Positions 3 through 24,547 of a DNA stretch of 64,000 nucleotides are shown piece by piece. A program made the position numbers and the translations under genes. Origin of the DNA: an uncultured bacterium. GTDB lineage: Bacteria; Oederibacteriota; Oederibacteriia; Oederibacteriales; Oederibacteriaceae. Every line of letters begins with the position of its first letter. Position 1 is the first letter of the stretch. The notes beneath the pieces are model-generated. The model was given only the letters and a program-made list of their open reading frames with translations. It had not been told where the DNA came from and searched no databases. The stretch is taken from positions 2,048,001-2,112,000 of the forward strand of contig OZ218778.1 in NCBI GenBank assembly GCA_965112635.1. The letters run 5' to 3'.

Positions 3-1253
3 GCTCGTTTAAGCGAACAGATATCTGAATATCAACAATCCCTCCTTGAGCTGGGGAACCAAGAGTCCGGGCTTTTACAGATGGAACATGATGCGCTCAA
101 TAAATTGCAACAGGCGGAAGCCCATTATACGAATTTAGGAAAGACCCTGTCCGCGATGAATATTCATTTGGCCCAAAACCAGGAGAAGAAAGCCGCGGTC
201 ATGAAGGAAAGGGAAGAGAAGGTCCGTCAAGGCGATGAAGTCGAGCAGCAGCTCAATGATATGAATGTTTTCATCAATGAAAGCAAGGCCAGCCGGGATC
301 AAATTGAGGAGATGATCGGGAAGCTAGAGCAGGAACAGGAAAAGCTCAGGAATAATAAACAGAAGAAAGAGGAAAAATTAAAGGAAGAAGAGGGTTTGAA
401 AGACCAGGTCGCCGAAGAGTTGGTCGCCATTGATAATGAAGTTGTTGCTATGCGAAAAAACAAGGAAGAGGTGCAGCGTCAACTTCAAGAGGAGAAGATG
501 AAAGTTGAGAAATTGACCTGGAATGTGGAGCAACTAACTGGCCGGCTCAAGGCCGAATACAATTGGAGCGAGCAGGATTTTCAAGCCTTTGAGGAGAATT
601 ATTCTCTGGAATCCAATGAGACGCGCGTCAATGAGCTGAGAGAGAAAATTAAAGACCTCGGTGAAGTCAGCCAACTTGCAATCGAAGAGTATGACGAGCT
701 CTCCAAAAGGCTTACGTTTCTCGAGGAGCAGCAAAAGGACCTTGTAGAATCAAAAGCTTCGTTGCTCAAGTTAATACAACAGATCAACGCCAACAGCCGT
801 GAGCTTTTTAAGGACACTTTTGAAAAGGCCCGGCAGAATTTCAAGGAAATCTTCACGCGTCTTTTCAATGGAGGCGAGGCGGACATCACGTTGGTTGAGG
901 GCGAAGACGTTTTGGAGGCAGGGGTGGAAATCATGGCCCGTCCACCAGGGAAAAAGCTTCAGTCAGTCAGTCTGTTGTCTGGCGGCGAGAGGGCATTGTG
1001 CGCCATCGCCATCCTTTTTTCATTGTTTTTGGTCAGGCCTTCGCCTTTTTGCGTGTTGGATGAAGTAGATGCCCCATTGGATGATGCCAATGTCCATCGC
1101 TATACACGCTTGCTTGAGCAGTTTCTCAAAACCACGCAGTTTATCTTGATCACTCACAGCAAGCTGACTATGGAGATCGCGGACGTTTTATATGGCGTGA
1201 CAATGCAGGAACAAGGAGTGTCTAAAATCGTTTCTGTCAAATTCAAAGAGTAA
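3..1253 (+). CDS. smc: Chromosome segregation protein SMC, C-terminal part (5' end outside window)
   Basis: Coiled coil then ABC signature LSGGE and Walker B/D-loop VLDEVDAPLD; frame open to window start; smc-ftsY synteny. Confidence 0.96.
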   Translation, partial: ARLSEQISEYQQSLLELGNQESGLLQMEHDALNKLQQAEAHYTNLGKTLSAMNIHLAQNQEKKAAVMKEREEKVRQGDEVEQQLNDMNVFINESKASRDQIEEMIGKLEQEQEKLRNNKQKKEEKLKEEEGLKDQVAEELVAIDNEVVAMRKNKEEVQRQLQEEKMKVEKLTWNVEQLTGRLKAEYNWSEQDFQAFEENYSLESNETRVNELREKIKDLGEVSQLAIEEYDELSKRLTFLEEQQKDLVESKASLLKLIQQINANSRELFKDTFEKARQNFKEIFTRLFNGGEADITLVEGEDVLEAGVEIMARPPGKKLQSVSLLSGGERALCAIAILFSLFLVRPSPFCVLDEVDAPLDDANVHRYTRLLEQFLKTTQFILITHSKLTMEIADVLYGVTMQEQGVSKIVSVKFKE

Positions 1254-1300
1254 GTTCTTGCCAGTCAACGCTCGCCAACCGCAGAAGGACAGATGTCGCA

Positions 1301-2209
1301 GTGAGTTGGATAGACAAATTTAAAAATGTATTAAGCAAAACCCGCCAAAAAATATCCGATTCGCTTTTCCCGTTCCTCTTAAGCCAGACTTTCCCTGAGA
1401 CTTTTTGGGAGGGTTTGGAGGACGCTCTTTTATCATCCGATGTCGGCGGTCCTTTGACCGAAACCCTGCTCACGGAAGTTAAAAAAGAGTTGGCCCAGCG
1501 AAAAGTCCAAACTGCCCAAGAGGCCGTTGATATTTTAAAAGAGGTCCTTAAAAAGTTGTTTCCTCTGCCGTTGAAATTGCAAAACAAAATTCCCCAAGTC
1601 ATCCTTGTTGTAGGGGTTAATGGAAGTGGAAAAACAACCACCATAGCAAAATTGGGCCACTTTTATCAAAAAAACGGGAAGAAAGTCCTATTGGTAGCCG
1701 CAGACACATTTCGGGCCGCTGCCCAAGCACAGCTAAAAATATGGGGGGATAGGCTTGGGGTCCACGTGTTTTCCCTGGATGGCAACGCAGGCGCTTCTTC
1801 GGTCATCTTTGAGGCTCTTAAAAAATGCTATAACGAGAAAGTGGATGTTGTCCTCATTGATACCGCTGGCCGTTTACATACAAAATTGCCTTTGATTGAA
1901 GAGATGAAAAAGATCAAAAAAGTGATTCAAAAGTTTGATCCCGATGGTCCCCATCAGATTTTATTGGTCATTGACGCTTCCACCGGACAAAATGGGCTGA
2001 CACAGGCAAAGGTTTTTTATGATTCGCTTGGAATTACCGGGCTCATTTTGACCAAACTTGATGGAAGCGCTAAGGGAGGGATGGTTTTTTCTGTTGTCAG
2101 TGAGTTGAAAGTGCCGATTATTAAAGTGGGCATTGGTGAAGGGGTAGAGGATTTGGATGATTTTAGCGCAGATGATTTTATTGAAGCTATATTTTCTTTT
2201 CAAATATAA
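1301..2209 (+). CDS. ftsY: SRP receptor FtsY
   Basis: GVNGSGKTTT, DTFRAAA, DTAGR, TKLDGSAKGG motifs. Confidence 0.96.
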   Translation: MSWIDKFKNVLSKTRQKISDSLFPFLLSQTFPETFWEGLEDALLSSDVGGPLTETLLTEVKKELAQRKVQTAQEAVDILKEVLKKLFPLPLKLQNKIPQVILVVGVNGSGKTTTIAKLGHFYQKNGKKVLLVAADTFRAAAQAQLKIWGDRLGVHVFSLDGNAGASSVIFEALKKCYNEKVDVVLIDTAGRLHTKLPLIEEMKKIKKVIQKFDPDGPHQILLVIDASTGQNGLTQAKVFYDSLGITGLILTKLDGSAKGGMVFSVVSELKVPIIKVGIGEGVEDLDDFSADDFIEAIFSFQI

Positions 2210-2296
2210 AGTTTAAGTTATTTATTAGTAATTATGAGTTTTTCAAATATTTTTATATAAAATTTGTGAAGCTCCATGCATTATATTGGACGTCTA

Positions 2297-2324
2297 TTGA
2301 CAGATGTGATTACGGTGATATCAT
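2297..2324 (+). promoter_or_regulatory. Sigma70-type promoter of the flgF operon
   Basis: TTGACA (2297-2302), 16 bp spacer, extended -10 TGnTATCAT (-10 at 2319-2324). Confidence 0.7.
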
Positions 2325-2339
2325 TACGTCAGAAGGTGG

Positions 2340-2443
2340 AAACTAGTAAGGTAGGCTGGACTGCTTTGCAGAAGCCTGTAATTGCCGATTGACTGAGGCA
2401 ATTTTTTTACAGCGATTTAGTTCGAGCCGATCCTTACTGGTTT
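2340..2443 (+). ncRNA. Candidate cis-regulatory leader RNA, copy 1 (flgF leader)
   Basis: Hairpin A UAGGCU-GGA-CUGC-uuu-GCAG-A-AGCCUG (2352-2378); hairpin B AAUUGCC-GAUUGACUGA-GGCAAUU (2380-2403); closing helix 2340-2351/2432-2443; related copies at 21116 and 24548. Confidence 0.7.
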
Positions 2444-2467
2444 TTTACCAGTAAGGATTTTTTATTT
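2430..2467 (+). terminator. Intrinsic terminator inside the flgF 5' leader (attenuator)
   Basis: Perfect 12 bp stem ATCCTTACTGGT/ACCAGTAAGGAT followed by TTTTTATTT, just before the flgF SD (AGGAGG 2471-2476). Confidence 0.8.
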
Positions 2468-2483
2468 AGAAGGAGGGCTTCAA

Positions 2484-3272
2484 ATGATCGCTGGTATTTA
2501 TACCTCTGCTTCAGGAATGATCGCCTATCAAACCCAAATGGATGTTGTGGCGAATAATCTTGCCAATGTTTCCACGACTGGTTTTAAAAAAGACGAAGCC
2601 GTCTTCACGGCCTTTCCTTCCTGGGTCATTCATCGTGTCAATGACAATATCGTTCCCATGGGAAGCGGTGCATTAGATTTGAGGCCTGCCATCGGCGTGA
2701 GAGGCGGAGGCGTGCAAGTCATGGACAATAATGTCATCCCGCGTTTTGATCAAGGCTCTTTGCAAGGAACGGACAATCCTTTTGATCTTGCCATTGAAGG
2801 GTCCGGTTTTTTTTCAGTGCAGACTCCCCAGGGGATCCGGTATACCCGTAATGGAAATTTTACGCTAAGCAGCAATAAAGAGCTTGTCAATATGGAGGGG
2901 TGTCAAGTTTTAGGAAATGATAACAAGCCCATAGTCATAAATGGTGACAAGGTCAACGTGATCGGGGACGGCTCGGTCTATGTTGACGGCATAAAGACCA
3001 ATCAGGTCGCCCTGACCGAGTTTGCTAACCCCCAATCTCTGACCAAACAAGGCGATGGGTTGTTCATTGCTCCGCAGGGGGTGGCACTAAACACCGGGAC
3101 GCCACAGTCCAGAGTCCACCAGGGCTCTCTAGAGTCATCCAATGTCAATACAATTGGGGAAATGGTCAAAATGATCGCTACGATGAGAGCGTATGAGGCA
3201 AGCCAACGCATGATCAGTTACCAGGACAGCACGCTCGGACACGCGGTCAACGATATTGCCAGAATGGCTTAA
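2484..3272 (+). CDS. flgF: Flagellar basal-body rod protein FlgF
   Basis: ANNLANVSTTGFKK, DLAIEGSGFF, YTRNGNF, LESSNVN; precedes flgG. Confidence 0.9.
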   Translation: MIAGIYTSASGMIAYQTQMDVVANNLANVSTTGFKKDEAVFTAFPSWVIHRVNDNIVPMGSGALDLRPAIGVRGGGVQVMDNNVIPRFDQGSLQGTDNPFDLAIEGSGFFSVQTPQGIRYTRNGNFTLSSNKELVNMEGCQVLGNDNKPIVINGDKVNVIGDGSVYVDGIKTNQVALTEFANPQSLTKQGDGLFIAPQGVALNTGTPQSRVHQGSLESSNVNTIGEMVKMIATMRAYEASQRMISYQDSTLGHAVNDIARMA

Positions 3273-3314
3273 AGAAGAAATTATTAAAATCTTAAGCAGA
3301 GGAGGAACGGTTAG

Positions 3315-4112
3315 ATGATGAGGACATTGTGGTCAGCTGCGTCAGGCATGTTGGCCCAGCAATTGAATATTGATACAATCAGTAATAACCTGGCGAATGT
3401 GAGCACGACAGGTTATAAGAAAAGCAGGGTGGAATTCCAAGATCTGTTGTATCAAACCATTCGACCTTCAGGTGTTCCGCTTTCTACGGGCACGCAAACA
3501 GCCATTGGGGTGCAGGTAGGCACAGGTACAAAACCTGTGGCTATCCAAAAGCTGTTCACCCAGGGAGAGACCACGATTACCAACAATCCTCTGGACCTAG
3601 AGGTTGACGGAGATGGCTTCTTCCAGGTATCCCAGCCTGATGGAACTATCGCCTATACAAGGGACGGGAGTTTCAACCAGGATGCTGCCGGGCATATCGT
3701 TACGCCAGACGGCAATTATTTGCAGCCTGAAATTTCTATTCCGCAAGATATAACCAGCGTCAGCATCAGCTCGGAAGGCAAGGTTTTTGGGACGGTCCCC
3801 GGACAAACCGACCAATCGCTTTTGGGCGAAATTGAGTTAGTGAAATTTGTCAACCCTGCCGGGCTTAATGCTTTGGGGGGCAATCTGTACGCCGCCACCT
3901 CTGCTTCCGGTGAACCTATCCAGGGTGTCCCCGGTGTCAATGGGTTCGGGTCCATCGCCCAAGGTTCCTTGGAAAATTCAAATGTGCAAGTCGTGGAAGA
4001 AATGGTGAACATGATCATATCCCAAAGGGCTTATGAAGTTAACGCCAAGGCCATCACGACGGCGGACCAGATGCTTTCGTTGGCCAATAACCTCAGGGGA
4101 CAGAACGCATAA
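3315..4112 (+). CDS. flgG: Flagellar distal rod protein FlgG
   Basis: SNNLANVSTTGYKK, FQDLLYQ, QVGTG, YTRDGSF, LENSNVQVVEEMV. Confidence 0.95.
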   Translation: MMRTLWSAASGMLAQQLNIDTISNNLANVSTTGYKKSRVEFQDLLYQTIRPSGVPLSTGTQTAIGVQVGTGTKPVAIQKLFTQGETTITNNPLDLEVDGDGFFQVSQPDGTIAYTRDGSFNQDAAGHIVTPDGNYLQPEISIPQDITSVSISSEGKVFGTVPGQTDQSLLGEIELVKFVNPAGLNALGGNLYAATSASGEPIQGVPGVNGFGSIAQGSLENSNVQVVEEMVNMIISQRAYEVNAKAITTADQMLSLANNLRGQNA

Positions 4113-4127
4113 TAGGGGGGCTGTAGC

Positions 4128-5114
4128 TTGAGACTCAGGATCGGTAGTTTATTAATTTTAGCTTTAGTGGCCCTCTGCGGTGCGGGGCAAACCAAAGATG
4201 GGTCGGGGTCGATATCCATCAAACTTAAAGCGGGCGCTTTAGTCAACGGCAAGGTAGTTTGTCTTAAGGATATCGCGTCCGTGGAAGGGGACGAGGCCCG
4301 GGTATCGCAGTTATTGGAGACCCCTCTCATCGACGCGCCTGCCCCTGCTGAAAGCGTCAAAATGACAGAGCAGCAGCTGGAAGCCATCCTGTTCAGGAAG
4401 GGCATTGATGCAAGCAGTTTTGCTATCAGTGGGGCCAGTGAGATCCAGATCACAGCAAATTTTAAGGAAATAAAGCATGATGATTTTATCGCCATGGTCA
4501 AAGATTACCTCCTCAAAACCATCAGGGTTGATCCCAACGAGCGCCTTACTTTGGACCCCATCTCTTTGCCTGGGGAAGGCGATCTTGTCCTGCCGCATGG
4601 CAACATTTCCGTTGAAGTGACCGGCGAGGTCAATCCGAAGAGCAAGCAGATCATGGTACCCGTAAGGATCAAGGTTGATGGGGTCTATTACAAACATTGT
4701 TCCGTTGCTTTTAAAGTTCACCGCCTAGCGGATGTCGCGGTGGCTAAAAGGAAGATGGAGCGGCACAAGGTCTTGGAGAACGAAGACATTACCATTGAAG
4801 AGAGAGATCTCAATGCCATGTCAGGCGAAGCGATCACTGACATCGGTAGTATTGTTGGAAAGAGGACCACGAGAGCCGTTGCCCCAAAACAGCCCGTGGT
4901 GGCCAGTATGGTCGAGATGCCTCCCCTGATCAAAAGGGGGGATGCGGTCACCGTGGTAGCTCGTTATAAGAACTTGCGGATCACCACTTTGGCCGAAGCC
5001 AAAGATGACGGTCGTTTAGGGGAAACCATTCGTTTGGAGAACGTGGATTCCAAGAAAGAGGTTAAGGCGATTGTAACCGGGGATAAGCAAGCAGAGATAG
5101 AAGTGAAATTATAG
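4128..5114 (+). CDS. flgA: P-ring assembly chaperone FlgA
   Basis: Signal peptide; C-terminal SAF-type segment PPLIKRGDAV..DGRLGETIRLEN; between flgG and flgH. Confidence 0.9.
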   Translation: MRLRIGSLLILALVALCGAGQTKDGSGSISIKLKAGALVNGKVVCLKDIASVEGDEARVSQLLETPLIDAPAPAESVKMTEQQLEAILFRKGIDASSFAISGASEIQITANFKEIKHDDFIAMVKDYLLKTIRVDPNERLTLDPISLPGEGDLVLPHGNISVEVTGEVNPKSKQIMVPVRIKVDGVYYKHCSVAFKVHRLADVAVAKRKMERHKVLENEDITIEERDLNAMSGEAITDIGSIVGKRTTRAVAPKQPVVASMVEMPPLIKRGDAVTVVARYKNLRITTLAEAKDDGRLGETIRLENVDSKKEVKAIVTGDKQAEIEVKL

Positions 5115-5130
5115 ATTCGAGGGGGTTTGT

Positions 5131-5757
5131 ATGAAAAAGTCGTTCGTTGTTCCGAAGATAATCCTTGCGGTCCTTCTGGCCAGTGTTTTAGGGTCCATTG
5201 CATTCGCGGACTCTTTATGGAGCCCCAATGGTTCAACGGATACCCCGAATTCCCTGTTTTCGGATAAAAGGTCTTTTAAAGTTGGCGATACGGTGGTGGT
5301 GCAGATCGTCGAGTCTGCCCAAGCGTCCCAGAACATTTCAACTTCAACACAAAAAGACGGATCACTCAGCGGCGGTGTGGGGACCAATCTAGCCGGCTCT
5401 ATGAACAATGCGGGCGGTGGTACCTGGTCGGGGGTGGGAGCTAATGAAACCTATAACGGGTTAGGAAAAAACTCGCGGAGCGGCTCTTTTCAAGGCACCA
5501 TCTCGGTAACGATTAACAAGGTTTTGCCCAACGGGAACCTGGAAATCAAGGGTAGCAGGGTCGTCACCATCAATGATGAGAAAGAGAATATCGAGGTTTC
5601 AGGGATAATACGTCCCTGCGACATCAATTCTTCCAATACGGTCCTTTCTACAGCGATCGCCGAAGCCCGGATATTATACGAAGGCAAGGGACCCTTGGGA
5701 GAAAAGGCACGCCCTGGCTTTTTGACCCGGTTATTGGATTGGTTGTGGATATTTTAA
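5131..5757 (+). CDS. flgH: L-ring protein FlgH
   Basis: SLFSDKR..VGDTVVV, VLPNGNLEIKG, SGIIRP..IAEARI motifs. Confidence 0.92.
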   Translation: MKKSFVVPKIILAVLLASVLGSIAFADSLWSPNGSTDTPNSLFSDKRSFKVGDTVVVQIVESAQASQNISTSTQKDGSLSGGVGTNLAGSMNNAGGGTWSGVGANETYNGLGKNSRSGSFQGTISVTINKVLPNGNLEIKGSRVVTINDEKENIEVSGIIRPCDINSSNTVLSTAIAEARILYEGKGPLGEKARPGFLTRLLDWLWIF

Positions 5758-5779
5758 GAAGGACAAGGGGAGTTCAATT

Positions 5780-6901
5780 ATGTTGAGACGGCATTCAAGC
5801 ATAATAAAAGTTATTCTTTTCTTGCTGGCTGTCGGAGTCATGGCTCAATCTGCCGACGCCGGTAATGTGCGTGTTCGCAACGCAGCCAGGATACAGGGGG
5901 TCAGAGAGAATCAACTTTTAGGCTACGGGCTTGTCGTGGGGCTGCAGTCCACGGGTGACCGTCCTACCAGTATATACAGCACCGGCAACGTCACGGTTCA
6001 GACCGTAGTCAACATGCTGCAAAAATTTGGTGTGGTCGTCGCTCCAGGCCAGATCAAGCCGAACAATGTGGCCGCCGTGATGGTTTCAGCGACCTTGCCT
6101 CCTTTTGTTAAATCAGGGGATAAAATTGATGTGACCGCATCCTCAGTCGGGGACGCCAGAAGCTTGCAGGGAGGCACTCTGTTGGAGACGCCGCTTTTGG
6201 GAGCAGACGGAAATGTCTATGCCGTGGCCCAGGGGAGCGTCTCCGTAGGCGGAGCGGAAACGCAGCCTGGTTTTATTTTCCAAAAACTACCCGTCAACGC
6301 GGGCCGTATCCCTGAGGGGGCTTTGGTAGAAAAAGAAGTCCCCACCAGCATCGTAGAAAGAGGGACCTATTTAAATATTATCCTCAACAGGCCGGATTTC
6401 ACCTCGGCGACAAATCTTACGGATGTTATCAATAAGCAGTTCTGGGGACCTATTGCCAGCGCCAAGGATGCTGCGACCATCAAGATCGAGATACCCTTGG
6501 ATTATCAAAAGAATATCGTCGAATTTATTGCGGCCTTGGAAGGGCTGGATTTCGATGAAGAGGAGGTTTCCAACAAAGTCGTTATTAATGAACGTACGGG
6601 AACCATTGTGATGGGCTTTGACGTACGGATCGACACGGTCGCTATTTCACACGGGAACCTTAGTGTTTATATCTCTCCAGCGCAAGCCATTGTCAATGGA
6701 GGCATTCCCGGCGAGACCGTTAAAGTTCCCAAGGGCGATGAGGGCAAGGGGAACTTGTTGGTCATCCCCGGGGAGGCCGTATCGCTTTCGGAAGTTGTCG
6801 GAGTTCTGAATAGCATTGGCGCAACTCCCAAAGAAATGATTGCTATTATTCAGGCTATCAAAGACGCTGGCGCGTTGCACGCGACATTAGAGATCATGTA
6901 A
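5780..6901 (+). CDS. flgI: P-ring protein FlgI
   Basis: GVRENQLLGYGLVVGL, NVAAVMV, SLQGGTLL, VINERTGTIV, AGALHA. Confidence 0.96.
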   Translation: MLRRHSSIIKVILFLLAVGVMAQSADAGNVRVRNAARIQGVRENQLLGYGLVVGLQSTGDRPTSIYSTGNVTVQTVVNMLQKFGVVVAPGQIKPNNVAAVMVSATLPPFVKSGDKIDVTASSVGDARSLQGGTLLETPLLGADGNVYAVAQGSVSVGGAETQPGFIFQKLPVNAGRIPEGALVEKEVPTSIVERGTYLNIILNRPDFTSATNLTDVINKQFWGPIASAKDAATIKIEIPLDYQKNIVEFIAALEGLDFDEEEVSNKVVINERTGTIVMGFDVRIDTVAISHGNLSVYISPAQAIVNGGIPGETVKVPKGDEGKGNLLVIPGEAVSLSEVVGVLNSIGATPKEMIAIIQAIKDAGALHATLEIM

Positions 6902-6928
6902 ACCCAATAAATTTGGGGAGGCCACTGC

Positions 6929-7273
6929 ATGGACGGCATAAACAAAATCTCTTTGAACGCAAGTTCTTACGGGATACAAAAAATGTACGGCGCTAATTCC
7001 TCATCGCGTCGTCAGGCTGAGTCTGTTTCTCCCGCCCAACAAAAACAATTGGACAAATTAAAGGAAACTGCTCAAGAGTTTGAGTCGCTTTTCCTGTCTT
7101 CGATTTTAAATAAAATGAGTGATGTTATTTTCAAATCGGACCTGACCGAGGAAAGCAACGCCACGACAATTTTCAGAGAGATGCGCAACCAGGAGTTGGC
7201 GCGGTCGATGTCTAAAGCCGGCGGAATAGGGCTGAGCAAAATCCTATACGACCAATTATCGAAAAATATATAA
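6929..7273 (+). CDS. flgJ: Single-domain FlgJ (rod-binding, no muramidase domain)
   Basis: LKETAQEFESLF and GGIGLSKILYDQL; follows flgI. Confidence 0.85.
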   Translation: MDGINKISLNASSYGIQKMYGANSSSRRQAESVSPAQQKQLDKLKETAQEFESLFLSSILNKMSDVIFKSDLTEESNATTIFREMRNQELARSMSKAGGIGLSKILYDQLSKNI

Positions 7274-7294
7274 AAGGAGTTATCGGGGGCCGTT

Positions 7295-7591
7295 ATGGCG
7301 ATGGTGAATTGTACCAAGTGCGGAAAATTATTTCTCCAAGCGGGGGACAAGCCCATTTGTCTCGAATGTTTGTCTCTCGCGGCCAAAGATTATAAAAAGG
7401 TTCATAGTTTTCTAAAACAACATCCGGGAGCCAGGGTGGATGAGGTGAGCGAGAAAACAGGCATCAGCGAAACAATGATCCTGGATTTTTTAAGGGAAGG
7501 CAGGCTTTCTTTGCGGGTAAGCAAGAGTTCCGTGTGCCAGTCATGCGGGGTGCCGATCGATAAAGGAAGTTATTGCGATAAGTGTTCCTAA
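7295..7591 (+). CDS. YvyF-like flagellar operon Zn-finger protein
   Basis: NCTKCGKLF..CLEC, central HTH-like EVSEKTGI..FLREGRL, terminal CQSCG..YCDKC. Confidence 0.8.
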   Translation: MAMVNCTKCGKLFLQAGDKPICLECLSLAAKDYKKVHSFLKQHPGARVDEVSEKTGISETMILDFLREGRLSLRVSKSSVCQSCGVPIDKGSYCDKCS

Positions 7592-7612
7592 TAAATTACT
7601 GGGGAAGATACA

Positions 7613-8128
7613 ATGCAAAACAAATTACTTAAAGACCTTTGGAGCGTATTGCAGGAGGAAATAAACGTTTATAAGGAGCTCTACAAGCTTTCCGAAGAGG
7701 AGAACCGCTTGTTGGTCAACAACGACCTGGAAGCTTTCCAAAAAGTCGTGCAAAAACAGGAGAAGCTGATTTTGGAGATCCATACGATGGACAACGTGAG
7801 GCAAAAAGTGGCTTCGACCATGACCAAAGAACTAGGGGATTCATCCAAGGCGGCCAACATCCCCGACCTTTTTGACAGCTTGGAAGAAGGTGACAAAGCG
7901 AAATTAAAGCAGTTGCAAGGGCAAGTCGTCCAATTAAAAGAAAAGCTTGATGCGATCAACAAGACCAATGGCGTGCTGATATCCAATGCCCTCCAATATT
8001 TGAAGTTTTCCCACAGGATCTCAGGCGGCAAGCCGGAGAAAAATCCCCAGGGAGAGGTTTATAGCGATCTGAAGGAACCGAAAAAAAAGACACCACGCAA
8101 ATCTTCGACGATTGATACGAAGATCTGA
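7613..8128 (+). CDS. flgN: Export chaperone FlgN
   Basis: Helical protein with LDAINKTNGVLI motif, directly upstream of flgK. Confidence 0.82.
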   Translation: MQNKLLKDLWSVLQEEINVYKELYKLSEEENRLLVNNDLEAFQKVVQKQEKLILEIHTMDNVRQKVASTMTKELGDSSKAANIPDLFDSLEEGDKAKLKQLQGQVVQLKEKLDAINKTNGVLISNALQYLKFSHRISGGKPEKNPQGEVYSDLKEPKKKTPRKSSTIDTKI

Positions 8129-8146
8129 GAAAAGGAGGTCGTCACT

Positions 8147-10351
8147 ATGAATTTCAGCGGATTGGGTTTCAGTATCGCCAACAGCGCTTTTGGGGCCTTG
8201 TCACAAGCCCTGGATGTTTACGGAAATAATGTCGCCAATGCCAACACGCCGGGTTACAGCCAGGAGGTCGCAGACCTTTCCGAGGGGATACCGCTTGACG
8301 GGTCCGGCGTCGCAGCCGGGCAAATAGGGACAGGAGTCCGTCTGGTCAGTATTTCAAGAATGAGGGACGAGTATCTCGATCTGCAGACCTATTATCAAAA
8401 TATGATCCTGGGGCAGAACGAGTCTTTGAACGACGTTTATAACCAGTTGAAAGTGATATTCCCCGATGCGGTTTCCATGACCGCCACCGGTCTTTCCGCC
8501 GCGATGAGCCAATTTTTTACCGACTGGTCAGCTTTAGCCGCGGATCCCTCCAGCGGGACTTTGCGTTCCAATTTAATGAATGACGCAGTCAGCATGTCCT
8601 CTCTGTTCAATAGTACAGCCAAGCAGTTGGTTTCCGAGGTTACCACAGTAAATCAGCAAATTTCATCAGATATAAACCAGGTCAATAGCTATTTGACCCA
8701 AATTGCATCTCTGAATCAAAGTATTACGGTAGCCAGCGGTAATGGGCAGAATCCCAATCAATTGCTGGACCAGAGGAATCTCCTAATAACCAACCTTTCG
8801 GAGTTGATCAATTTTTCTACAGTTACGCTTTCCGACAATACCATTACTTTACAAATTAACGGTATCGCTTTGGTGCAGGGCGGAACTGCCAACCAATTAA
8901 GCGCCTGCGCCGATCCGAATAATCCGTCTTTTATTGATGTAGGATGGAGGCAGGGGTCGGCTAGTTCTACGCCGACCTATGATCTGACCAGCAAGATCAC
9001 CGGCGGGAAGATCGGGGGGCTCATCCAAAGCCGTACCAGCGTTTTGTTGCCTTTGCAGTCAGAACTAAACCAAATCGCGAGCAGTATGATAACCCAGGTC
9101 AACACTTATCATGAGGCCGGTTATAATACGACCGATGGGACAACCTATGGTATTGGGATAAATACTGAGATACCTTTTTTTGATGGAACCAATGCTCAGT
9201 CCATCTGCGTGAATCCAGCCATTCAGGATAACGTTTCTTTGATCGCGGCTAGCAAAGACCTCAATCCAGTTACCGGCGCTGTGGATGGCCAGAATGCAGA
9301 TCTTATTGCCGGGTTGCAAGATGTGCTTCTCAACAGCAATGAGCAGTCCGTGATCGCGATGAATTTTGGGAAGCCCGGCCGGATCGATCCGGCTATGCCT
9401 ATGAGTTGGGGGGTTACGACTGCGATCAATGGCGCAGGGACCAACCTCACCAATTTTTCTCTTGCTCCCAACCCCGCGGGAGGGACCCTTTCAGTGGACG
9501 GCGTTGCGGTGCCGTGGTTGGCCGGCCAATCTTTGAACACTATCATCAATAACATCAACCTTGCTTTGGGCGGCCAGGCGTTTGCCTGCTTTAATACCAC
9601 AACGCAAGAAGTCACTTTTACGGGCAGCCAGCAGGTAATCCTTCGCGATGTGTCAGGAAACTTGACCACAGTGTTCAGGGCGGCCTTGCAGCTCTACAGC
9701 GCCACTAATATCAACATTGAACCAGGGCCGAACCAGATGCGCGTGGACCCGGCCATGCCTATGAATATTAATCCATCTCCGGCCACGGACCCGGTGAATT
9801 TATTGGGTTATAATGAGATCAATTTCTTTGTCGCGCCCAGCCAGTTTGGGACGGTCAGTGTCAATAACAACCCCATCGCCTATACCGATGCCACACCTAT
9901 TAATACGATTGTCGGCGCTATCCAAGGTATCCCAGGATTCGGCACTTCCTTTTTTAATACTGCGACACAGCAGTTGGTTCTGCGCACATCGCCGGCACAG
10001 GGGATAAGCGTGGAAGATATTGGCGGAAACTTTAACGAGTTCATGCAAATGCCTCCGACAGGGGATTTCAGCGATGTTTATAACGACCTTATTTCCAAAG
10101 TCAGTGATGGGGCCACCGCTGTCACCAACAATCTTACGACAGCCAACGGGGCTTTGACCCAGATCCAGAACAACCAGGACAGCGTCGCCAAGGTGAATAT
10201 TGACCAGCAGGACGCGATCATTGACCAACTGGGCAAAACCGCTGAAGCGGTTTTACGTTATGAAGAGACCCTTAATGAATTGCTCAATGTCTTGATAAAC
10301 GGTATGGGGTCAAACAATAATAATAATCCATCTTCTTCCTCTCCAGCATAG
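8147..10351 (+). CDS. flgK: Hook-associated protein FlgK, enlarged, with duplicated insert domain
   Basis: NNVANANTPGYS, GQIGTGV..ISRMRDEYLD, NQLLDQRN, GGKIGGL; divergent C-terminus. Confidence 0.88.
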   Translation: MNFSGLGFSIANSAFGALSQALDVYGNNVANANTPGYSQEVADLSEGIPLDGSGVAAGQIGTGVRLVSISRMRDEYLDLQTYYQNMILGQNESLNDVYNQLKVIFPDAVSMTATGLSAAMSQFFTDWSALAADPSSGTLRSNLMNDAVSMSSLFNSTAKQLVSEVTTVNQQISSDINQVNSYLTQIASLNQSITVASGNGQNPNQLLDQRNLLITNLSELINFSTVTLSDNTITLQINGIALVQGGTANQLSACADPNNPSFIDVGWRQGSASSTPTYDLTSKITGGKIGGLIQSRTSVLLPLQSELNQIASSMITQVNTYHEAGYNTTDGTTYGIGINTEIPFFDGTNAQSICVNPAIQDNVSLIAASKDLNPVTGAVDGQNADLIAGLQDVLLNSNEQSVIAMNFGKPGRIDPAMPMSWGVTTAINGAGTNLTNFSLAPNPAGGTLSVDGVAVPWLAGQSLNTIINNINLALGGQAFACFNTTTQEVTFTGSQQVILRDVSGNLTTVFRAALQLYSATNINIEPGPNQMRVDPAMPMNINPSPATDPVNLLGYNEINFFVAPSQFGTVSVNNNPIAYTDATPINTIVGAIQGIPGFGTSFFNTATQQLVLRTSPAQGISVEDIGGNFNEFMQMPPTGDFSDVYNDLISKVSDGATAVTNNLTTANGALTQIQNNQDSVAKVNIDQQDAIIDQLGKTAEAVLRYEETLNELLNVLINGMGSNNNNNPSSSSPA

Positions 10352-10523
10352 GATAAGGCGTAAAGCAGGTTTTTCGTCCTTTTGAGGGGTTTTTTGTTGC
10401 CAGAAAAGAAAAAAGGACGCCCCACCAGGTGTCATATTTTATTCCTAGATTTAGGAACTTTTGTTTAAGTATTGCGTCTAATATATAATAGAAGTAAGGG
10501 AAAAGTTAGAGGAGGGGCGCGAG

Positions 10524-12338
10524 GTGAAAAATTTACTTAAAAAGCGTATTTTGGTCCTGGGGTTTGTTTTGACTTTTGGCTGGTCATCCTCTGTTTGGGC
10601 TGCGGATTGGCCGATTTTTCATTTTGACGGCAGTTCCGGTTTTACCACGGACAGTATTGGGGCGCAGAATCTGGAGAGGTGGAATCATCCTTGTCCCAAT
10701 GCACCCACTTCATGCGTAGTGATTAATGGTTTCACCTATTACACCACCCAAGCAGGAGTTTATAAACTGGACAGCACCGGAGCTCTATCCTCCACTTGGC
10801 CGATAAATCCGGTCAATCCTTCCAGTCTTTCCACAACCTACTACACGATGCCGGCTTACTGGAATAGCGTGATCTATGTCGGGGCCTGGGACCCTACCCA
10901 ATCCAGTAAGAACGGCGTTTATGCGATCAAAACTGCTGATGGCTCTGCGTATTGGACCAATCCGCCGACCTGTCCTGGTTACTGCAACTACAATACCTCC
11001 CAGATCAATACCTACGCGGCTCCCATAGTCGGAAATGCCGGAGCGGTGGAGGCTGTTTTTGTGGGGGATACTGGCGGTAATATTTACGCTTTTGACACGA
11101 CCAAAACAATCCCTACCGCTCTCTGGAGCCACAACCTGGGAACCATGGGACTTTATTCCACTCCGGCTTATTGGACAGATGGAACAGATGCCTGGGTCTA
11201 TTTTGCAATGGTTGCCAGTAACCCCATCAATAGCAAGATATACAAAGTTTTTGCGTCCAGCGGTTTTTGGTTTGGCCCGCCCTTCGGTGTTCATTCCAAT
11301 CCCTGGGCTTGGCCGGCGGTAGGGACCGTAGAAGGTTTTTATTCCTCGCCGGCTGTGGACAGCAGCGGCAATGTATATGTTGGATGCGATAACGATAATG
11401 TCTATTCTATATCTTTGACCGAGACGATGAATTGGACCTTTACGGCTGGGGATGTCGTAAGATCGAGCCCTGCAGTAGCCACGCTGGGCGGGACTCACTA
11501 TGTTTTTGTGGGTTCCAACGACGGCAATCTCTATGCGCTCAATGCGAATACTGGAGCGCAGATATGGAATTATCAGGTGGGAGTCCCTGGTTACGCCGCA
11601 TTGGGTGCTCCGGCAATCAGCCGGGATGGCCTGGTTTATTTTGGCAGCGGGAGTCTCTCGGCTAATATGTATATTTTTCAGGGCAATCCACTTCCATCCA
11701 CTACGCCTCAAGTGGTAGCCACGGTAGGCCCGTGGGGTGTTAACAGCATATTATCCCCAGCACTCAGCGATACAACCGCAGGCGGCGGATTTCCTGCCGC
11801 TTATGTTGCCGCGGATAAAATCTATTGCTTGGGACCGACCTATACTTTGACCCAGTCGGCTACGCCTACGGTGACTGGGACGCCCGGCCCGCCTAGCACT
11901 TCAACGCCAACTTTGACGCCCTTGACTCCGTTTAATACTCCCACTATTACCGTAACATTCACCTGCACTTTGACTCCCACAATTACCACGACGGCCACTG
12001 CCACTCAGACAACTACCATGACCCCCACCATCAGCCCCACTAGTACTCTTACCCTGACATTGACGCCGCCCCCGTATATCATCGTATATCCCAATCCGAT
12101 GAATTTCAGCCAATATAAAGGGGTTAAGATCATCGGAACGCCTATTCTTGGCGCCGATATTGCCATCTATACTATTTCAGGAGAAACAGTGAGAAAGGTT
12201 TCCAAAAATACAGCTTACCCATTTATTTGGGACGGTAATAATGACGACGGTGTACCTGTGGTCACGGGCCTTTATCTCTATATCATCAACACCGCTGACG
12301 GCAATAGCATCAAAGGCAAGTTAGCCATCATTCGTTAA
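10524..12338 (+). CDS. Secreted PQQ-like beta-propeller protein with Thr/Pro linker and T9SS-type (FlgD Ig-like) C-terminal sorting domain
   Basis: Signal peptide VWA-ADWP; repeats SSPAV/VFVGSNDGNLYALNANTG; T/P tract ~11838-12074; tail VYPNP..IYTISGETV..WDGNNDDG..TGLYLY..KLAIIR. Confidence 0.8.
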   Translation: MKNLLKKRILVLGFVLTFGWSSSVWAADWPIFHFDGSSGFTTDSIGAQNLERWNHPCPNAPTSCVVINGFTYYTTQAGVYKLDSTGALSSTWPINPVNPSSLSTTYYTMPAYWNSVIYVGAWDPTQSSKNGVYAIKTADGSAYWTNPPTCPGYCNYNTSQINTYAAPIVGNAGAVEAVFVGDTGGNIYAFDTTKTIPTALWSHNLGTMGLYSTPAYWTDGTDAWVYFAMVASNPINSKIYKVFASSGFWFGPPFGVHSNPWAWPAVGTVEGFYSSPAVDSSGNVYVGCDNDNVYSISLTETMNWTFTAGDVVRSSPAVATLGGTHYVFVGSNDGNLYALNANTGAQIWNYQVGVPGYAALGAPAISRDGLVYFGSGSLSANMYIFQGNPLPSTTPQVVATVGPWGVNSILSPALSDTTAGGGFPAAYVAADKIYCLGPTYTLTQSATPTVTGTPGPPSTSTPTLTPLTPFNTPTITVTFTCTLTPTITTTATATQTTTMTPTISPTSTLTLTLTPPPYIIVYPNPMNFSQYKGVKIIGTPILGADIAIYTISGETVRKVSKNTAYPFIWDGNNDDGVPVVTGLYLYIINTADGNSIKGKLAIIR

Positions 12339-12353
12339 CCTGGGGGAATCTGT

Positions 12354-13469: not shown

Positions 13470-13499
13470 TTTTCCAGTCAAATTATCTTTAGAAAGTTG

Positions 13500-13527
13500 T
13501 TGACAAAAAAAGAAGTTAAACTAATGT
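13500..13527 (+). promoter_or_regulatory. Possible sigma70 promoter
   Basis: TTGACA-N16-TAATGT upstream of the FlgN-like gene. Confidence 0.45.
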
Positions 13528-13606
13528 ATGGGTAAGATATTTCTTATGTTTTGGTTTCATGAAGGTTTTGTTAAGATGATTTTCGATTTTGCAGGGAGAA
13601 GATATT

Positions 13607-14056
13607 TTGAACCAAGAACTCATTACCCGCAGCGTTGAAAACCTTTATAATAACTTCCAAAAAGAAATTGTTTTGTATGAAGAAGTATTCCAACTCACTC
13701 AACAGGAACATAAAAGCATAGTCAACGGCGCCCTGGATGAAACGCTAAAATATGTTAATGAAAAGCAGGATATCCTCAATAAAATAGAACTTATTGAAGA
13801 GGAACAAAAGGATCTAAAGAAGATTTGGGTCCAATCGCGCTACAAAGTCACAGAGGAGATCAGGAAAAAAATAAGGGAAAGCCTGGCGGTATTAGGGAGA
13901 CTCCTGGAAGACTTGATTAATTTGGAAAAACAAAATGAAAGAACATTGTCAGATCAGATCGGAATGTTCAGCGTTTTAAAAAGTGACAATAAGATAGCCC
14001 CTAAAAATGCCGCGGATGCCTATAAAAAGAACGACGACTCGCCGATAAAAAGCTGA
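13607..14056 (+). CDS. Second FlgN/FliT-like helical chaperone
   Basis: All-helical; LYEEVFQLTQQEH..EKQDILNKIE, terminal AADAYKK; TTG start after GGGAG. Confidence 0.55.
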   Translation: MNQELITRSVENLYNNFQKEIVLYEEVFQLTQQEHKSIVNGALDETLKYVNEKQDILNKIELIEEEQKDLKKIWVQSRYKVTEEIRKKIRESLAVLGRLLEDLINLEKQNERTLSDQIGMFSVLKSDNKIAPKNAADAYKKNDDSPIKS

Positions 14057-21115: not shown

Positions 21116-21189
21116 AGGACATAAATGGCTGGACTGCTTAGCAGAAGCCAATGGTTGCTGAATGAATGAAGCAATCAGTTTTATGTCCT
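21116..21189 (+). ncRNA. Candidate cis-regulatory leader RNA, copy 2 (fliK leader)
   Basis: UGGCU-GGA-CUGC-uua-GCAG-A-AGCCA; UGGUUGCU-GAAUGAAUGA-AGCAAUCA; closing helix AGGACAUAAA/UUUAUGUCCU. Confidence 0.7.
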
Positions 21190-21366
21190 CACGTTGCAGG
21201 TGAGGAAAATGAGAGCGGTCAATTTAGATCTCAAAAAAGATTTCCTAACCCACCAAAGTTTTTTTCTTGAAGTTTATCTTTCTCAATTCATGAAGAATAT
21301 ATTTGATGATTGTTTGTTGCTGCCTCATTGTTTTTGTTTGATTCCTGCAGAAGGGAGGCAGATCAA

Positions 21367-23646
21367 ATGATTATCAATCAACCCTCCCAGGCACTACCTA
21401 TCTTGAATTTCCTTGATGGTGCTGGCAATCAATCGCAGCAGGGAACACCTGGTGGCCAGACATTCAGTGATGCTTTCATTGCGGCTAGCCAGGGATTGGC
21501 TGGCCTGCCTATTTCACCCGCCATTCAAAATAGTCCCAACACAATAAATGTCGATCCTGAAAAAATAAACCAGGCTACCATGCAGTTAATAAGCGACGTT
21601 AATTCGATGCCAGTCTCGAATCAAAATCATGCCTGGAATAATGTTCCTGATCAGTTAGTCCAATCCCAAAAATCCAATGAGGTCAATTTATTCGGAAATG
21701 GCTATAATGCCATGACAATAGATAATCTGCAGGTCCAGCAAAACAGTGTTCCCTCCAATCAAGGCGTGATGAGTAACGGCGCACCCTCTTTACCTTACAT
21801 TGATAACGAGAGTGAGGCAAACGGTTCATTTGAGCTTAAGACCCAGGGCGTATTTGGCAGCAACAATATCGTGCCGCAGCAAGGTCAAGAACAGCAGGGT
21901 CTTGTGGTAAGCCAAAAGCAAATGCAGGTGTCCGCTTCAGATTCCATAAAAGAGAATAGCTCTATTGATGCTGCGACAATGTCGCCCGCGAGTGAAAACA
22001 TCCTGGGCAGCCAGATTGATTCAGTGAGCCAGGATATCTTCGCTTCCTCAAATCTAAGTGCATTGACAGATTCCAGCAAAGTTAGTCCAGTTGCTAGTTT
22101 AATTTATGGACACGAACTTGGCTCTCCAGCTGTTTCGCAGTTCTCCGGACCAAGCGCAGATCCTTTATTAAGTACTGCCGGACCCAATATCCAAGTTCAA
22201 CCGCAAGCAGTTGCTTCGCCTGTTCCACTATACCGGGGAGATCAGCCAGTTCTCTATTCAGATAGCGGAAGCATGGGAACATTTGGGACGGAAAATTCGG
22301 TAACTCTTAGCCGGCAAGATAGTGATGGACAAACGAAGGACATGGCTCAACCGACAGCTACCCAATCGAGCATCATGGCGGGAGCTTTGTGGGCCAGTGC
22401 TGTCAATCAGGGAGCCTATTTTATTCCTGAGGCTGAGAGCAATTCTATTGCTACTAATAATGCGACTTCGTCAGAAGCACTTACGAGCAATGCAGCGGGA
22501 GCTGGGTTAAACGTAGTAACTGACGACCAATTGAGTAGCCAAGGTGCCTTAAATAATGACGCTGTGCTGAATGTGAGCAGTACGACGGAAGGTCAAAATT
22601 TGGATTTATCAAATTATCAAGACGTATTTAATCAGGTTACTGGTACGCAAGCGGGAACCGGCTCCCTCAATAATTCACCATCAGAAAAGATGCTTTCTAT
22701 GCAAAGCAGCTACGATATAAATAAGTCGATTGATGATGAGCTGCCGGTTGTTTCAGAGAATGTTTTAGGTGCACCGCAGTCTTCCAATACCCCAGTTATA
22801 CCTGCATCAAATTACGTTGTTGCAGCGAACACCCAGGTTCCCGCAATAAACGCAGTTCTTTCCGGCCAGTTTGGCCAGAATATAGGGGTAGCCAACGCAA
22901 AATCCAATATTGTGGTGCTAAATCAAAATCACGAGGTTCTGCCCGAGACCGTTTCTTCCCTAGATAATAATGGCAACAACTTCGTTCAAAATCCTCAAAA
23001 TACCGGAAATCCCCTTGAATTAAAGGCATTTGTTGGCCTTATGGGCAGTGGCGGCCTGTCAATCTCCGGAGGCAATAATTTTAACGGAAGTAGCAGCTTG
23101 CCGATCATAGCTCCCCAAGTGAAACCGGAGGACCTGCAGATTGGCTTAAACCCCAGCGTTGTGGATTTAGCCAGCAGCCGGCCTGGTAACAGTGATATGA
23201 AAATCCTCCAAAATAATGTGCAGAAATCGGTCAATGATGAGGTATTCAGCCAAATTGTTGAAAAGGCTAACCTTATGATAAATGCAGGAGTCAGTCAGAT
23301 CAATATTGTGCTTAAACCAGAACATTTAGGGACCCTGTTGCTCCAAGTCACTCATACCCAGAATGCTCTTTCCGCCTCAATCCAAACCCCCAATGCTGCG
23401 GTCAGCGATGTCCTTAAGTCCCAGTTGGGAGCTTTAAAGACATCTCTTGCGGCTGAGGGAGTCCATCTGCAAAATTTAAATGTTTTCACGGGGAGCAATT
23501 TTAACCAGAACGGGAACAATGCGGGTAATTGGGAAAGGGCGGATTACCCTAACATTTTGCCGGTTTCATTGAGATCTATTTCTAGCGAAGATAATTATTC
23601 CCTGAACCGTATCGGCAGCGACAGTTTAGTGGATGTTTTTGCTTAA
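21367..23646 (+). CDS. fliK: Hook-length control protein FliK (long, ~760 aa)
   Basis: Low-complexity S/N/Q-rich N-region; C-terminal IVLKPEHLGTL..LKSQLGALKTSL; precedes flgD. Confidence 0.88.
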   Translation: MIINQPSQALPILNFLDGAGNQSQQGTPGGQTFSDAFIAASQGLAGLPISPAIQNSPNTINVDPEKINQATMQLISDVNSMPVSNQNHAWNNVPDQLVQSQKSNEVNLFGNGYNAMTIDNLQVQQNSVPSNQGVMSNGAPSLPYIDNESEANGSFELKTQGVFGSNNIVPQQGQEQQGLVVSQKQMQVSASDSIKENSSIDAATMSPASENILGSQIDSVSQDIFASSNLSALTDSSKVSPVASLIYGHELGSPAVSQFSGPSADPLLSTAGPNIQVQPQAVASPVPLYRGDQPVLYSDSGSMGTFGTENSVTLSRQDSDGQTKDMAQPTATQSSIMAGALWASAVNQGAYFIPEAESNSIATNNATSSEALTSNAAGAGLNVVTDDQLSSQGALNNDAVLNVSSTTEGQNLDLSNYQDVFNQVTGTQAGTGSLNNSPSEKMLSMQSSYDINKSIDDELPVVSENVLGAPQSSNTPVIPASNYVVAANTQVPAINAVLSGQFGQNIGVANAKSNIVVLNQNHEVLPETVSSLDNNGNNFVQNPQNTGNPLELKAFVGLMGSGGLSISGGNNFNGSSSLPIIAPQVKPEDLQIGLNPSVVDLASSRPGNSDMKILQNNVQKSVNDEVFSQIVEKANLMINAGVSQINIVLKPEHLGTLLLQVTHTQNALSASIQTPNAAVSDVLKSQLGALKTSLAAEGVHLQNLNVFTGSNFNQNGNNAGNWERADYPNILPVSLRSISSEDNYSLNRIGSDSLVDVFA

Positions 23647-24527: not shown

Positions 24528-24547
24528 AGTTAGAAAAATTATGTATT

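What the first reader, a model, noticed from the sequence alone, without database searches (positions are those of the whole stretch)
2297..2483. flgF leader has a complete terminator/antiterminator switch
Seen: promoter, then AAACUAGUAAGG (2340-2351), the two motif hairpins, a 12 bp terminator with U tract (2430-2467) and the SD. Bases 2340-2351 can pair over 12 bp (one G-U) with the terminator 5' arm CCUUACUGGUUU (2432-2443), so closing the motif junction and forming the terminator are mutually exclusive. Inference: an ON-type attenuator gating flgF-G-A-H-I-J-yvyF-flgN-flgK.
Basis: partly seen in the sequence, partly recalled or inferred. Interest (0 to 1): 0.85.

Follow-up and report, generated by a model that had tools for sequence, protein, structure and literature searches.

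The report
Flagellar leader RNA with terminator switch
The RNA ahead of the flagellar rod gene flgF carries a two-hairpin element that also sits before rod and hook genes in many bacteria, and here it is joined to a transcription stop signal and a competing pairing that could switch the operon on or off.

Summary
Bases 2340-2351 pair over 12 bp (one G-U) with 2432-2443, which covers 10 of the 13 bases of the terminator 5' arm. Only 3 of 3000 shuffles pair as well.

The "two motif hairpins" are a real structured RNA. It has strong covariation and no Rfam match, and nine literature searches found no description. It occurs in 39 of 99 genomes of the window's phylum, 83 of 121 sampled Bacillales, and other lineages. 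In 57 of 63 instances a rod/hook-type gene follows.

The junction-closing helix and the terminator are not part of the conserved motif. Among the 63 instances, convincing terminators follow only this genome's flgF copy and one paralogous copy. The third copy (fliK leader) has a 10-bp closing helix that overlaps a hairpin over a Shine-Dalgarno-like sequence, which is the same logic.

With the motif folded, predicted energies favour the "off" fold by about 3 kcal/mol in both leaders.

The attenuator architecture is supported. Conditional function, the ON direction and the effector are inferred. No close relatives or RNA data exist to test them.

The parts
2297..2324 (+). sigma-70-type promoter (TTGACA, 16-nt spacer, TGn-TATCAT); transcription start inferred near 2331
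   Evidence: 11 of 12, TG present; start site inferred from spacing, not measured
2338..2351 (+). 5' strand of the junction-closing helix P1, acting as antiterminator (core 2340-2351)
2354..2376 (+). hairpin P2 of the conserved motif (GGCU / GGA bulge / CUGC-UUU-GCAG / A / AGCC)
   Evidence: covariation; model R2, 64.2 bits
2380..2403 (+). hairpin P3 of the conserved motif (7 bp, 10-nt loop GAUUGACUGA fitting GANYGAHNGA)
2404..2428 (+). variable linker between P3 and the terminator; not conserved in the paralogous leader
2429..2469 (+). intrinsic terminator: 13-bp stem, 5-nt loop, U tract; bases 2432-2445 are also the 3' strand of P1
   Evidence: hairpin -19.1 kcal/mol
2470..2486 (+). Shine-Dalgarno AAGGAGGG and ATG of flgF
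2484..10351 (+). genes downstream of the leader: flgF, flgG, flgA, flgH, flgI, flgJ-like, yvyF-like, flgN, flgK (co-transcription inferred from spacing)
21116..21205 (+). second copy in the fliK leader: P1 21116-21125/21180-21189, P2 21127-21149, P3 21153-21176, then hairpin CCUCAC/GUGAGG 21187-21205 that overlaps P1 by 3 nt and covers a Shine-Dalgarno-like GUGAGG
21209..21370 (+). 53-codon ORF behind that hairpin; its stop overlaps the likely fliK ATG (21367)
   Evidence: no family match; reality of the ORF not shown

Best explanation
The flgF leader (about 2331-2483) is a transcription attenuator built on a widely conserved two-hairpin RNA element of flagellar rod/hook gene mRNAs.

After the promoter fires, the 5' strand 2338-2351, hairpins P2 and P3 and a linker are made. 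When 2432-2445 emerges it can pair back to 2338-2351 and close a three-way junction around the motif. This occupies 10 of the 13 bases of the terminator's 5' arm.

If the closed junction is held, the terminator cannot form and RNA polymerase reads into flgF through flgK. The holding agent is most likely an unknown factor that recognises the conserved bulge and loop of the motif. I put a protein at about 55%, a small molecule at about 25%, and neither at about 20%. If the junction is not held, the 3' arm 2447-2459 displaces the 5' strand, the 13-bp hairpin and U tract form, and transcription stops near 2465, leaving an RNA of about 135 nt.

Shown: the parts, their mutual exclusivity, their balanced predicted energies, and the reality and conservation of the motif. 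Inferred: that termination occurs, that it is conditional, that the effector favours read-through (ON, about 65% given that it is a switch), and what the effector is.
For: 1. The parts and the pairing are confirmed and are not chance (3 of 3000 shuffles).
2. Stepwise folding shows the closed junction is the minimum-energy fold for RNA ending at 2436-2456. The terminator fold takes over only from 2460, by 0.2 kcal/mol.
3. With P2 and P3 enforced the terminator wins by 3.4 kcal/mol. Partition functions give 226:1, and the direct-path barrier from P1 to terminator is 11.3 kcal/mol. A modest stabilisation of the junction would therefore flip the outcome.
4. Three paralogous leaders in one genome share the logic but differ in sequence:
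   - The fliK leader has a perfect 10-bp P1 of unrelated sequence (17 of 3000 shuffles). Its 3' strand overlaps a hairpin over a Shine-Dalgarno-like sequence. The closed form is -31.9 and the sequestered form -34.9 kcal/mol.
   - The third leader (L002) has the motif, a nearly identical 13-bp terminator and a weaker, interrupted upstream pairing (87 of 3000 shuffles).
5. The hairpins are a genuine conserved RNA. On 63 instances 95.4% of cells are paired, 13 of 15 pairs show changes on both sides and 0 of 500 shuffles reach this; slid controls give 26-52% paired. The alignment was fitted to the model, which favours it. Mutual information independently ranks the helix pairs on top.
6. The motif is tied to flagellar genes. 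57 of 63 instances are followed within 420 nt by an ORF with the rod/hook N-terminal signature. Others precede FliK and a flagellin-family gene.
7. The terminator hairpin is not a dispersed repeat; the genome has only the two copies.
Against: 1. P1 is not part of the conserved motif. Flank pairing across 63 instances has mean z -0.12, and only 6 have z < -2. Closing the junction therefore cannot be how the effector acts in most species.
2. Elsewhere the motif abuts the Shine-Dalgarno site with no terminator. My script flagged 6 of 63 instances. Only the two own copies have 13-bp terminator stems (as called by the scan tool) followed by a U run; one instance (L040) is ambiguous and three are not terminators.
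3. Enforcing the motif changes predicted Shine-Dalgarno accessibility in few instances (up in 11, down in 3 of 58). No general switching mechanism is visible.
4. In the unconstrained fold of the flgF leader neither low-energy state contains the conserved P2. The P1 state owes its stability to a non-conserved pairing of the P2 5' half with the linker.
5. The third leader's antiterminator pairing is weak.
6. The flgF and L002 leaders are likely duplicates, so their shared terminator is not independent evidence.
7. A 12-14 bp P1 is long for a ligand-gated helix and might form or fail regardless of any effector.
8. There is no expression or 3'-end data.
Confidence: 0.6

Rival explanations
1. The terminator is a fixed, leaky attenuator that sets a constant ratio of short leader RNA to operon mRNA. 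The motif works only at the level of translation or mRNA stability, as it seems to in other species. The upstream complementarity merely tunes basal read-through and is not gated by anything.
For: - Elsewhere the motif has no terminator and no P1.
- There is no general alternative structure.
- The two folds are nearly isoenergetic, which alone would give partial termination.
Against: - Three leaders in one genome each enclose the motif in a helix that overlaps an off-state hairpin, with similar energy gaps of 3.0 and 3.4 kcal/mol. This is hard to explain without coupling to the motif's state.
- The P1 sequences differ between the flgF and fliK leaders, which argues for selection on pairing.
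Confidence: 0.2
2. Promoter, motif and terminator form a small RNA gene of about 135 nt that acts in trans, for example by titrating the factor that binds the same motif on other flagellar mRNAs. Expression of flgF depends on read-through or on another start site.
For: - A strong promoter and a strong terminator bracket a structured RNA.
- A second such unit exists in the genome.
- The folding z-score is -4.7.
Against: - In 57 of 63 instances the motif lies in an mRNA directly before a rod/hook-type gene's start, which points to action in cis.
- No other promoter-like site was called between 2325 and the flgF ATG on the + strand.
- No sigma-70-type promoter was called before the L002 copy.
Confidence: 0.12
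3. The arrangement has no regulatory meaning. The hairpin is the terminator of the upstream ftsY gene, and the upstream complementarity is a remnant of a duplication.
For: - ftsY ends at 2209 and has no other strong terminator called before 2429.
- 2340-2351 resembles the terminator 3' arm in 10 of 12 positions.
Against: - The terminator lies after a near-consensus promoter and after an RNA motif specific to flagellar mRNAs.
- The same motif-terminator unit recurs before another gene, 1 Mb away.
- The chance of the pairing is about 0.1%.
Confidence: 0.04

Closest known systems
ON-type transcriptional riboswitches such as the pbuE (ydhL) adenine riboswitch (recalled, not tested here)
   Same: A helix that closes a multi-helix junction shares its 3' strand with the 5' arm of an intrinsic terminator, so a stabilised junction means read-through.
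   Different: The aptamer is unrelated. The ligand is unknown and may be a protein. P1 is 12-14 bp long and 28 nt away from P3, and it is absent from the motif in other species.
Protein-stabilised antiterminators (LicT/SacY-type RAT elements; recalled)
   Same: An antiterminator structure overlaps the terminator 5' arm and would be held by a bound factor, giving an ON response.
   Different: There is no sequence or structure likeness to RAT. No PRD-type antiterminator was linked to this locus. The binder is unknown.
c-di-GMP-I riboswitch before the flgB operon of Clostridioides difficile (recalled)
   Same: The leader of a flagellar operon contains an intrinsic terminator.
   Different: No Rfam match was found to c-di-GMP-I, c-di-GMP-II or any other family. 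That switch is OFF-type.
CsrA-FliW control of flagellin mRNA leaders (recalled; listed)
   Same: It is post-transcriptional control of a flagellar axial protein through leader hairpins and GGA elements near the Shine-Dalgarno site.
   Different: The window's genome has no CsrA gene (0 of 1, with controls positive). The conserved GGA sits in an internal bulge and the second conserved loop has no GGA. The targets are rod/hook genes rather than flagellin.
Termite-flg (RF01729) and flg-Rhizobiales (RF01736) candidate RNAs
   Same: Both are candidate cis-regulatory RNAs named for flagellar genes (table passages of PMC2864571; that they lie upstream of flagellar genes is recalled, not seen in those passages).
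   Different: Neither Rfam model matched this leader or six other instances, even at E up to 1-10. Their taxa differ (termite-gut metagenome; Rhizobiales).
Guanidine-II (mini-ykkC) riboswitch (recalled)
   Same: It has two tandem hairpins with conserved loops directly before the Shine-Dalgarno site, a variable linker and no closing helix. This is how the motif looks in most species.
   Different: The loops and gene context differ. There the two hairpins are alike; here they are unlike.

Membership tests
Intrinsic (Rho-independent) terminator | G+C-containing stem-loop directly followed by a U run | tested here: met
   13 pairs (5 G-C), 5-nt loop, UUUUUUAUUU; hairpin -19.1 kcal/mol
Intrinsic (Rho-independent) terminator | transcripts actually end there | not testable with these tools
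   no RNA run holds the stretch
Terminator/antiterminator attenuator | terminator lies between the promoter and the first gene | tested here: met
   promoter 2297-2324, terminator 2429-2469, ATG 2484
Terminator/antiterminator attenuator | an alternative pairing that excludes the terminator and is comparably stable | tested here: met
   12-14 bp with 2338-2351; -46.2 versus -46.4 kcal/mol
Terminator/antiterminator attenuator | alternative pairing kept by compensatory changes in relatives | tested here: inconclusive
   no close relatives were found. Within the genome the fliK leader keeps a P1 of different sequence and the L002 leader keeps a weak one. Most other species have none.
Riboswitch | conserved structured aptamer supported by covariation | tested here: met
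   13 of 15 pairs show changes on both sides, 0 of 500 shuffles reach this, n=63
Riboswitch | binds a small-molecule ligand | not testable with these tools
   no assay was possible; the gene context (rod/hook genes) names no metabolite
Riboswitch | ligand-dependent alternative structure in the expression platform | tested here: inconclusive
   seen in the window genome's three leaders only; elsewhere Shine-Dalgarno accessibility is mostly unchanged (11 up, 3 down of 58)
Any Rfam 15 family (including c-di-GMP-I/II, Termite-flg, flg-Rhizobiales) | match to the covariance model | tested here: not met
   0 matches at gathering score in the window. The best hit in 2150-2600 is 17.5 bits against a threshold of 100 and is driven by the terminator. 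0 matches at E<=1 in 7 loci.
CsrA-regulated leader | a CsrA gene in the genome | tested here: not met
   PF02599: 0 of 1, genome 96.9% complete in one contig; controls positive in 3 of 14

The most novel reading that the evidence does not exclude
The two-hairpin element is a new, ancient class of ligand- or assembly-sensing RNA that tags the mRNAs of exported flagellar axial proteins. It was seen before FlgE, FlgG, FlgF, a FlgD-like gene, FliK and a flagellin-family gene. It occurs in Bacillota, the phylum whose record titles read FCPU426, and in MAGs titled Armatimonadetes and Eisenbacteria. On this reading it is either a new riboswitch for a motility signal or the RNA half of an undescribed partner-switch that couples rod/hook synthesis to export. 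In this genome it has been wired into ON-type attenuators and a translational switch.
Probability: 0.3. Interest if true: 0.9.

Novelty: new variant of a known kind. Interest (0 to 1): 0.74.

Why it matters
No RNA-level regulator of rod and hook genes turned up in Rfam 15 or in my literature searches. Yet the element under this leader is present once per genome in 83 of 121 sampled Bacillales, an order with easily handled laboratory species, and in several distant lineages.

The window's genome is useful because it is the only one seen where the element is attached to readable expression platforms: two terminators and one hairpin over a Shine-Dalgarno-like sequence. These platforms give a first prediction of which fold means "on". 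They also give a simple read-out, termination at about 2465, for finding the effector.

If the effector is tied to flagellar assembly or to a motility signal, this would be a new checkpoint in flagellar biogenesis. It could be tested directly in Bacillus or Paenibacillus.

Tried and rejected
- **Known RNA families:** none matched.
- **CsrA as binder:** rejected for this genome, which has no CsrA gene.
- **YvyF-like zinc-ribbon protein (encoded in the regulated operon) as binder:** its family is in 61 of 99 genomes of the phylum, all below the curated score. These include motif-negative flagellated families (f6 4/4, f12 8/8, f17 3/3). It therefore does not track the motif. This neither supports nor excludes it.
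- **Pseudoknot or loop contacts:** mutual information over 63 instances ranks only the helix pairs. No loop-flank or loop-bulge covariation was seen; the bulge and loop are nearly invariant, so this says little.
- **General Shine-Dalgarno sequestration switch:** not seen.
- **Conserved P1:** not seen outside this genome.
- **Dispersed repeat or mobile element:** only two copies of the terminator unit exist.
- **Expression data:** no RNA holder is listed; read laying was not used because contigs cannot show ends.
- **Close relatives for covariation of the switch:** 126 stretches matched the peptide patterns, and one relative at 31% identity was confirmed.
- **Identity of the 161-aa ORF behind the third copy:** no Pfam or NCBIfam family, and the Atlas hits were uninformative.
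- **fliK leader promoter:** the scan tool called none.
- **Literature:** nine searches ran and none turned up this motif. One search (short sequence words) returned 3,783 unrelated papers and was useless. Subscription journals and supplements were not searchable. Additional file 1 of PMC2864571, which describes Termite-flg, could not be seen.
- **My own error:** I mis-set P3 of the L002 leader by one base in two constrained folds (the -28.1 and -16.5 values). I do not use those numbers.

Full report
**Observation.**
- The promoter is TTGACA (2297-2302), a 16-nt spacer and TGn-TATCAT (2317-2324). It matches 11 of 12 positions and is the best of 24 promoter-like sites in 1200-14000.
- The terminator is a 13-pair stem (2429-2441/2447-2459; 12 Watson-Crick pairs plus a basal G-U) with a 5-nt loop and UUUUUUAUUU (2460-2469). 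It is the longest of 16 terminator-like sites. That count is no higher than the shuffles give, so only the site's quality and position count.
- The Shine-Dalgarno site (SD) AAGGAGGG (2470-2477) and the ATG at 2484 follow.
- Bases 2340-2351 are complementary to 2432-2443 with one G-U, and two more G-U pairs can extend the helix.
- The 12-mer occurs exactly only at these two places in the window.
- 3 of 3000 shuffles of the 23 nt between the inferred start (about 2331) and the motif pair as well with the terminator 5' arm. So do 3 of 2775 other 23-mers of the window.
- The gene names are right.

**The motif.** The two hairpins (P2 2354-2376, P3 2380-2403) occur three times in this 2.88-Mb genome:
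- here, before flgF;
- at 21127-21176, between fliJ and fliK;
- 1 Mb away (locus L002), before a 161-aa ORF with no known family.

A covariance model of the three copies found the element in 20 of 61 related genomes. A model rebuilt from 19 sequences found it in 39 of 99 genomes of the phylum, while 76 of those 99 have rod/hook genes. Several flagellated families lack a detectable copy.

A pattern scan of one genome per species gave 52 loci, of which 33 matched the model at E<=0.01. Five carry titles reading "candidate division FCPU426". Some of these are the same sequences as loci from the phylum search (compare), so that is probably the window's phylum. Other loci are from Paenibacillus, Siminovitchia, Bacillus and Syntrophomonadales, and from MAGs titled Clostridiales, Armatimonadetes and Eisenbacteria. 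In the order of the Siminovitchia genome, 83 of 121 sampled genomes have exactly one match.

On 63 instances the structure is strongly supported. 95.4% of cells are paired, 13 of 15 pairs show changes on both sides, and 0 of 500 shuffles reach this. Slid controls give 26-52% paired. The alignment was fitted to the model, but mutual information also ranks the helix pairs first.

The consensus has four parts:
- (A)AC before P2;
- GGCY, a GGA bulge, an invariant C-G pair, a variable inner stem, A, then RGCC;
- a linker of variable length;
- a 7-bp P3 with the loop GANYGAHNGA.

No Rfam 15 family matches. Termite-flg and flg-Rhizobiales are both in Rfam (passages of PMC2864571) and did not match. 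Nine literature searches found no description.

**Context.** In 57 of 63 instances an ORF with the rod/hook N-terminal signature starts within 420 nt. 30 of these have the FlgG-like QSLYT start and 27 do not; the 27 include FlgE-like genes and the window's FlgF.

The other six are the window's fliK and 161-aa ORF, a FlgN-like ORF (by eye), an HTH-like ORF (by eye), a FlgD-like ORF (by eye) and one unresolved.

A MAG titled Armatimonadetes has four copies. One precedes a FliK gene and one a flagellin-family gene.

In Bacillales the element fills the gap between the stop of a gene ending like the TIGR02530 family and the flgE SD. That family was confirmed by NCBIfam only for the window's own copy at 24138-24527. 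In most species the motif ends 3-60 nt before the SD.

**What is special here.** A helix closing the junction is not part of the motif. Flank pairing over 63 instances has mean z -0.12. Only 6 instances have z < -2, and these include all three copies of this genome.

My terminator script flagged 6 of 63 instances:
- Only the flgF and L002 copies have 13-bp terminator stems (as called by the scan tool) followed by a U run.
- One (L040) is an ambiguous 7-bp hairpin.
- Three are not terminators; two of these are SD-containing hairpins.

The switch parts are therefore a lineage-specific expression platform grafted onto a conserved element.

**Energetics of the flgF leader (2331-2470).**
- Unconstrained, the terminator fold is -46.4 and the closed-junction fold -46.2 kcal/mol.
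- With the conserved P2 and P3 enforced, the values are -44.0 and -40.6.
- Ensemble fractions are 0.19 terminator and 0.38 P1. With the motif enforced the terminator is favoured 226:1. The direct-path barrier from P1 to terminator is 11.3 kcal/mol.
- Growing-chain folding shows that the junction closes as soon as 2436-2444 is out. The terminator wins only after 2460.
- One caveat applies: in the unconstrained folds P2 is replaced by non-conserved pairings.

**The fliK leader.** A perfect 10-bp P1 of unrelated sequence (21116-21125/21180-21189; 17 of 3000 shuffles) overlaps by 3 nt a hairpin CCUCAC/GUGAGG. That hairpin covers a Shine-Dalgarno-like sequence before a 53-codon ORF whose stop overlaps the fliK ATG. 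The closed form is -31.9 and the sequestered form -34.9 kcal/mol.

The flgF and fliK platforms are different, yet they share the same topology and the same gap of about 3 kcal/mol. The L002 leader has a nearly identical terminator but only an interrupted upstream pairing (87 of 3000 shuffles).

**Mechanism.** I commit to an attenuator in which a factor that recognises the conserved bulge and loop stabilises the closed junction and so blocks the terminator (ON). My confidence that the leader is a conditional terminator/antiterminator is about 0.6. Given that, ON is about 65% likely.

For the effector I estimate a protein at about 55%, a small molecule at about 25%, and neither at about 20% (a stabiliser or processing element). 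Four observations favour a protein:
- the motif lacks a closing helix in most species;
- the linker is variable;
- the motif lies next to the SD without an alternative fold;
- assembly-coupled feedback is usual in flagellar systems (recalled).

CsrA is excluded for this genome. The YvyF-like protein does not track the motif.

**Limits.** No RNA data exist. No close relatives were found. The flgF and L002 leaders are probably duplicates.

**Verdict.** The larger result is that the hairpins belong to a widespread flagellar RNA element that I could not find described. This genome's leaders give its first readable expression platforms.

Noticed in passing
window 21209-21370: A 53-codon ORF lies directly behind the SD-like hairpin of the fliK leader. 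Its TGA overlaps the likely fliK ATG at 21367 (ATGA), which suggests translational coupling. It has no family match.
   Followed up: partly
L002 1711-2196 (G000:C1, about 1.01 Mb): A 161-aa Ser/Thr/Asn/Gln-rich ORF with a run of seven His sits behind the third motif-plus-terminator leader. It has no Pfam or NCBIfam family. It may be an unrecognised flagellar protein.
   Followed up: partly
window 10524-13469: Two non-canonical genes lie between flgK and the flgB/flgC cluster. One is a 604-aa beta-propeller (PQQ_2-like) protein with a weak FlgD Ig-like end. The other is a 371-aa protein with a weak PorV-like match (below cut-off).
   Followed up: no
window 13589-14056: A second, weak FlgN-like ORF (25.7 bits, below the cut-off of 30.5) lies upstream of flgB.
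   Followed up: no
L032 (oriented 1565-1690; same sequence as L101): A G+C-rich palindrome (CCCTCTCCCCC..GGGGGAGAGGG) is inserted between the motif and flgG. It lengthens the spacer to 125 nt.
   Followed up: no
L121 (G103:C7:9703-9763): In a weaker motif instance the P3 hairpin itself is G+C-rich and followed by TTTTT. It could be a terminator made from P3.
   Followed up: no
L094, L066, L078 (Syntrophomonadales-type loci): The 3' strand of P3 overlaps a short hairpin that contains the flgE SD (ACAUCCU/AGGAGGU). This is a possible translational platform like that of the fliK leader.
   Followed up: partly
window 3273-3314 and 24528-24540: In this genome the flgF-flgG and TIGR02530-flgE gaps, where relatives carry the motif, are short (42 and 13 nt) and have no motif. 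The element seems to have moved to promoter-proximal leaders.
   Followed up: partly
window 50824-50880: A weak match to the motif model (14.3 bits, E 0.046) is probably chance.
   Followed up: no
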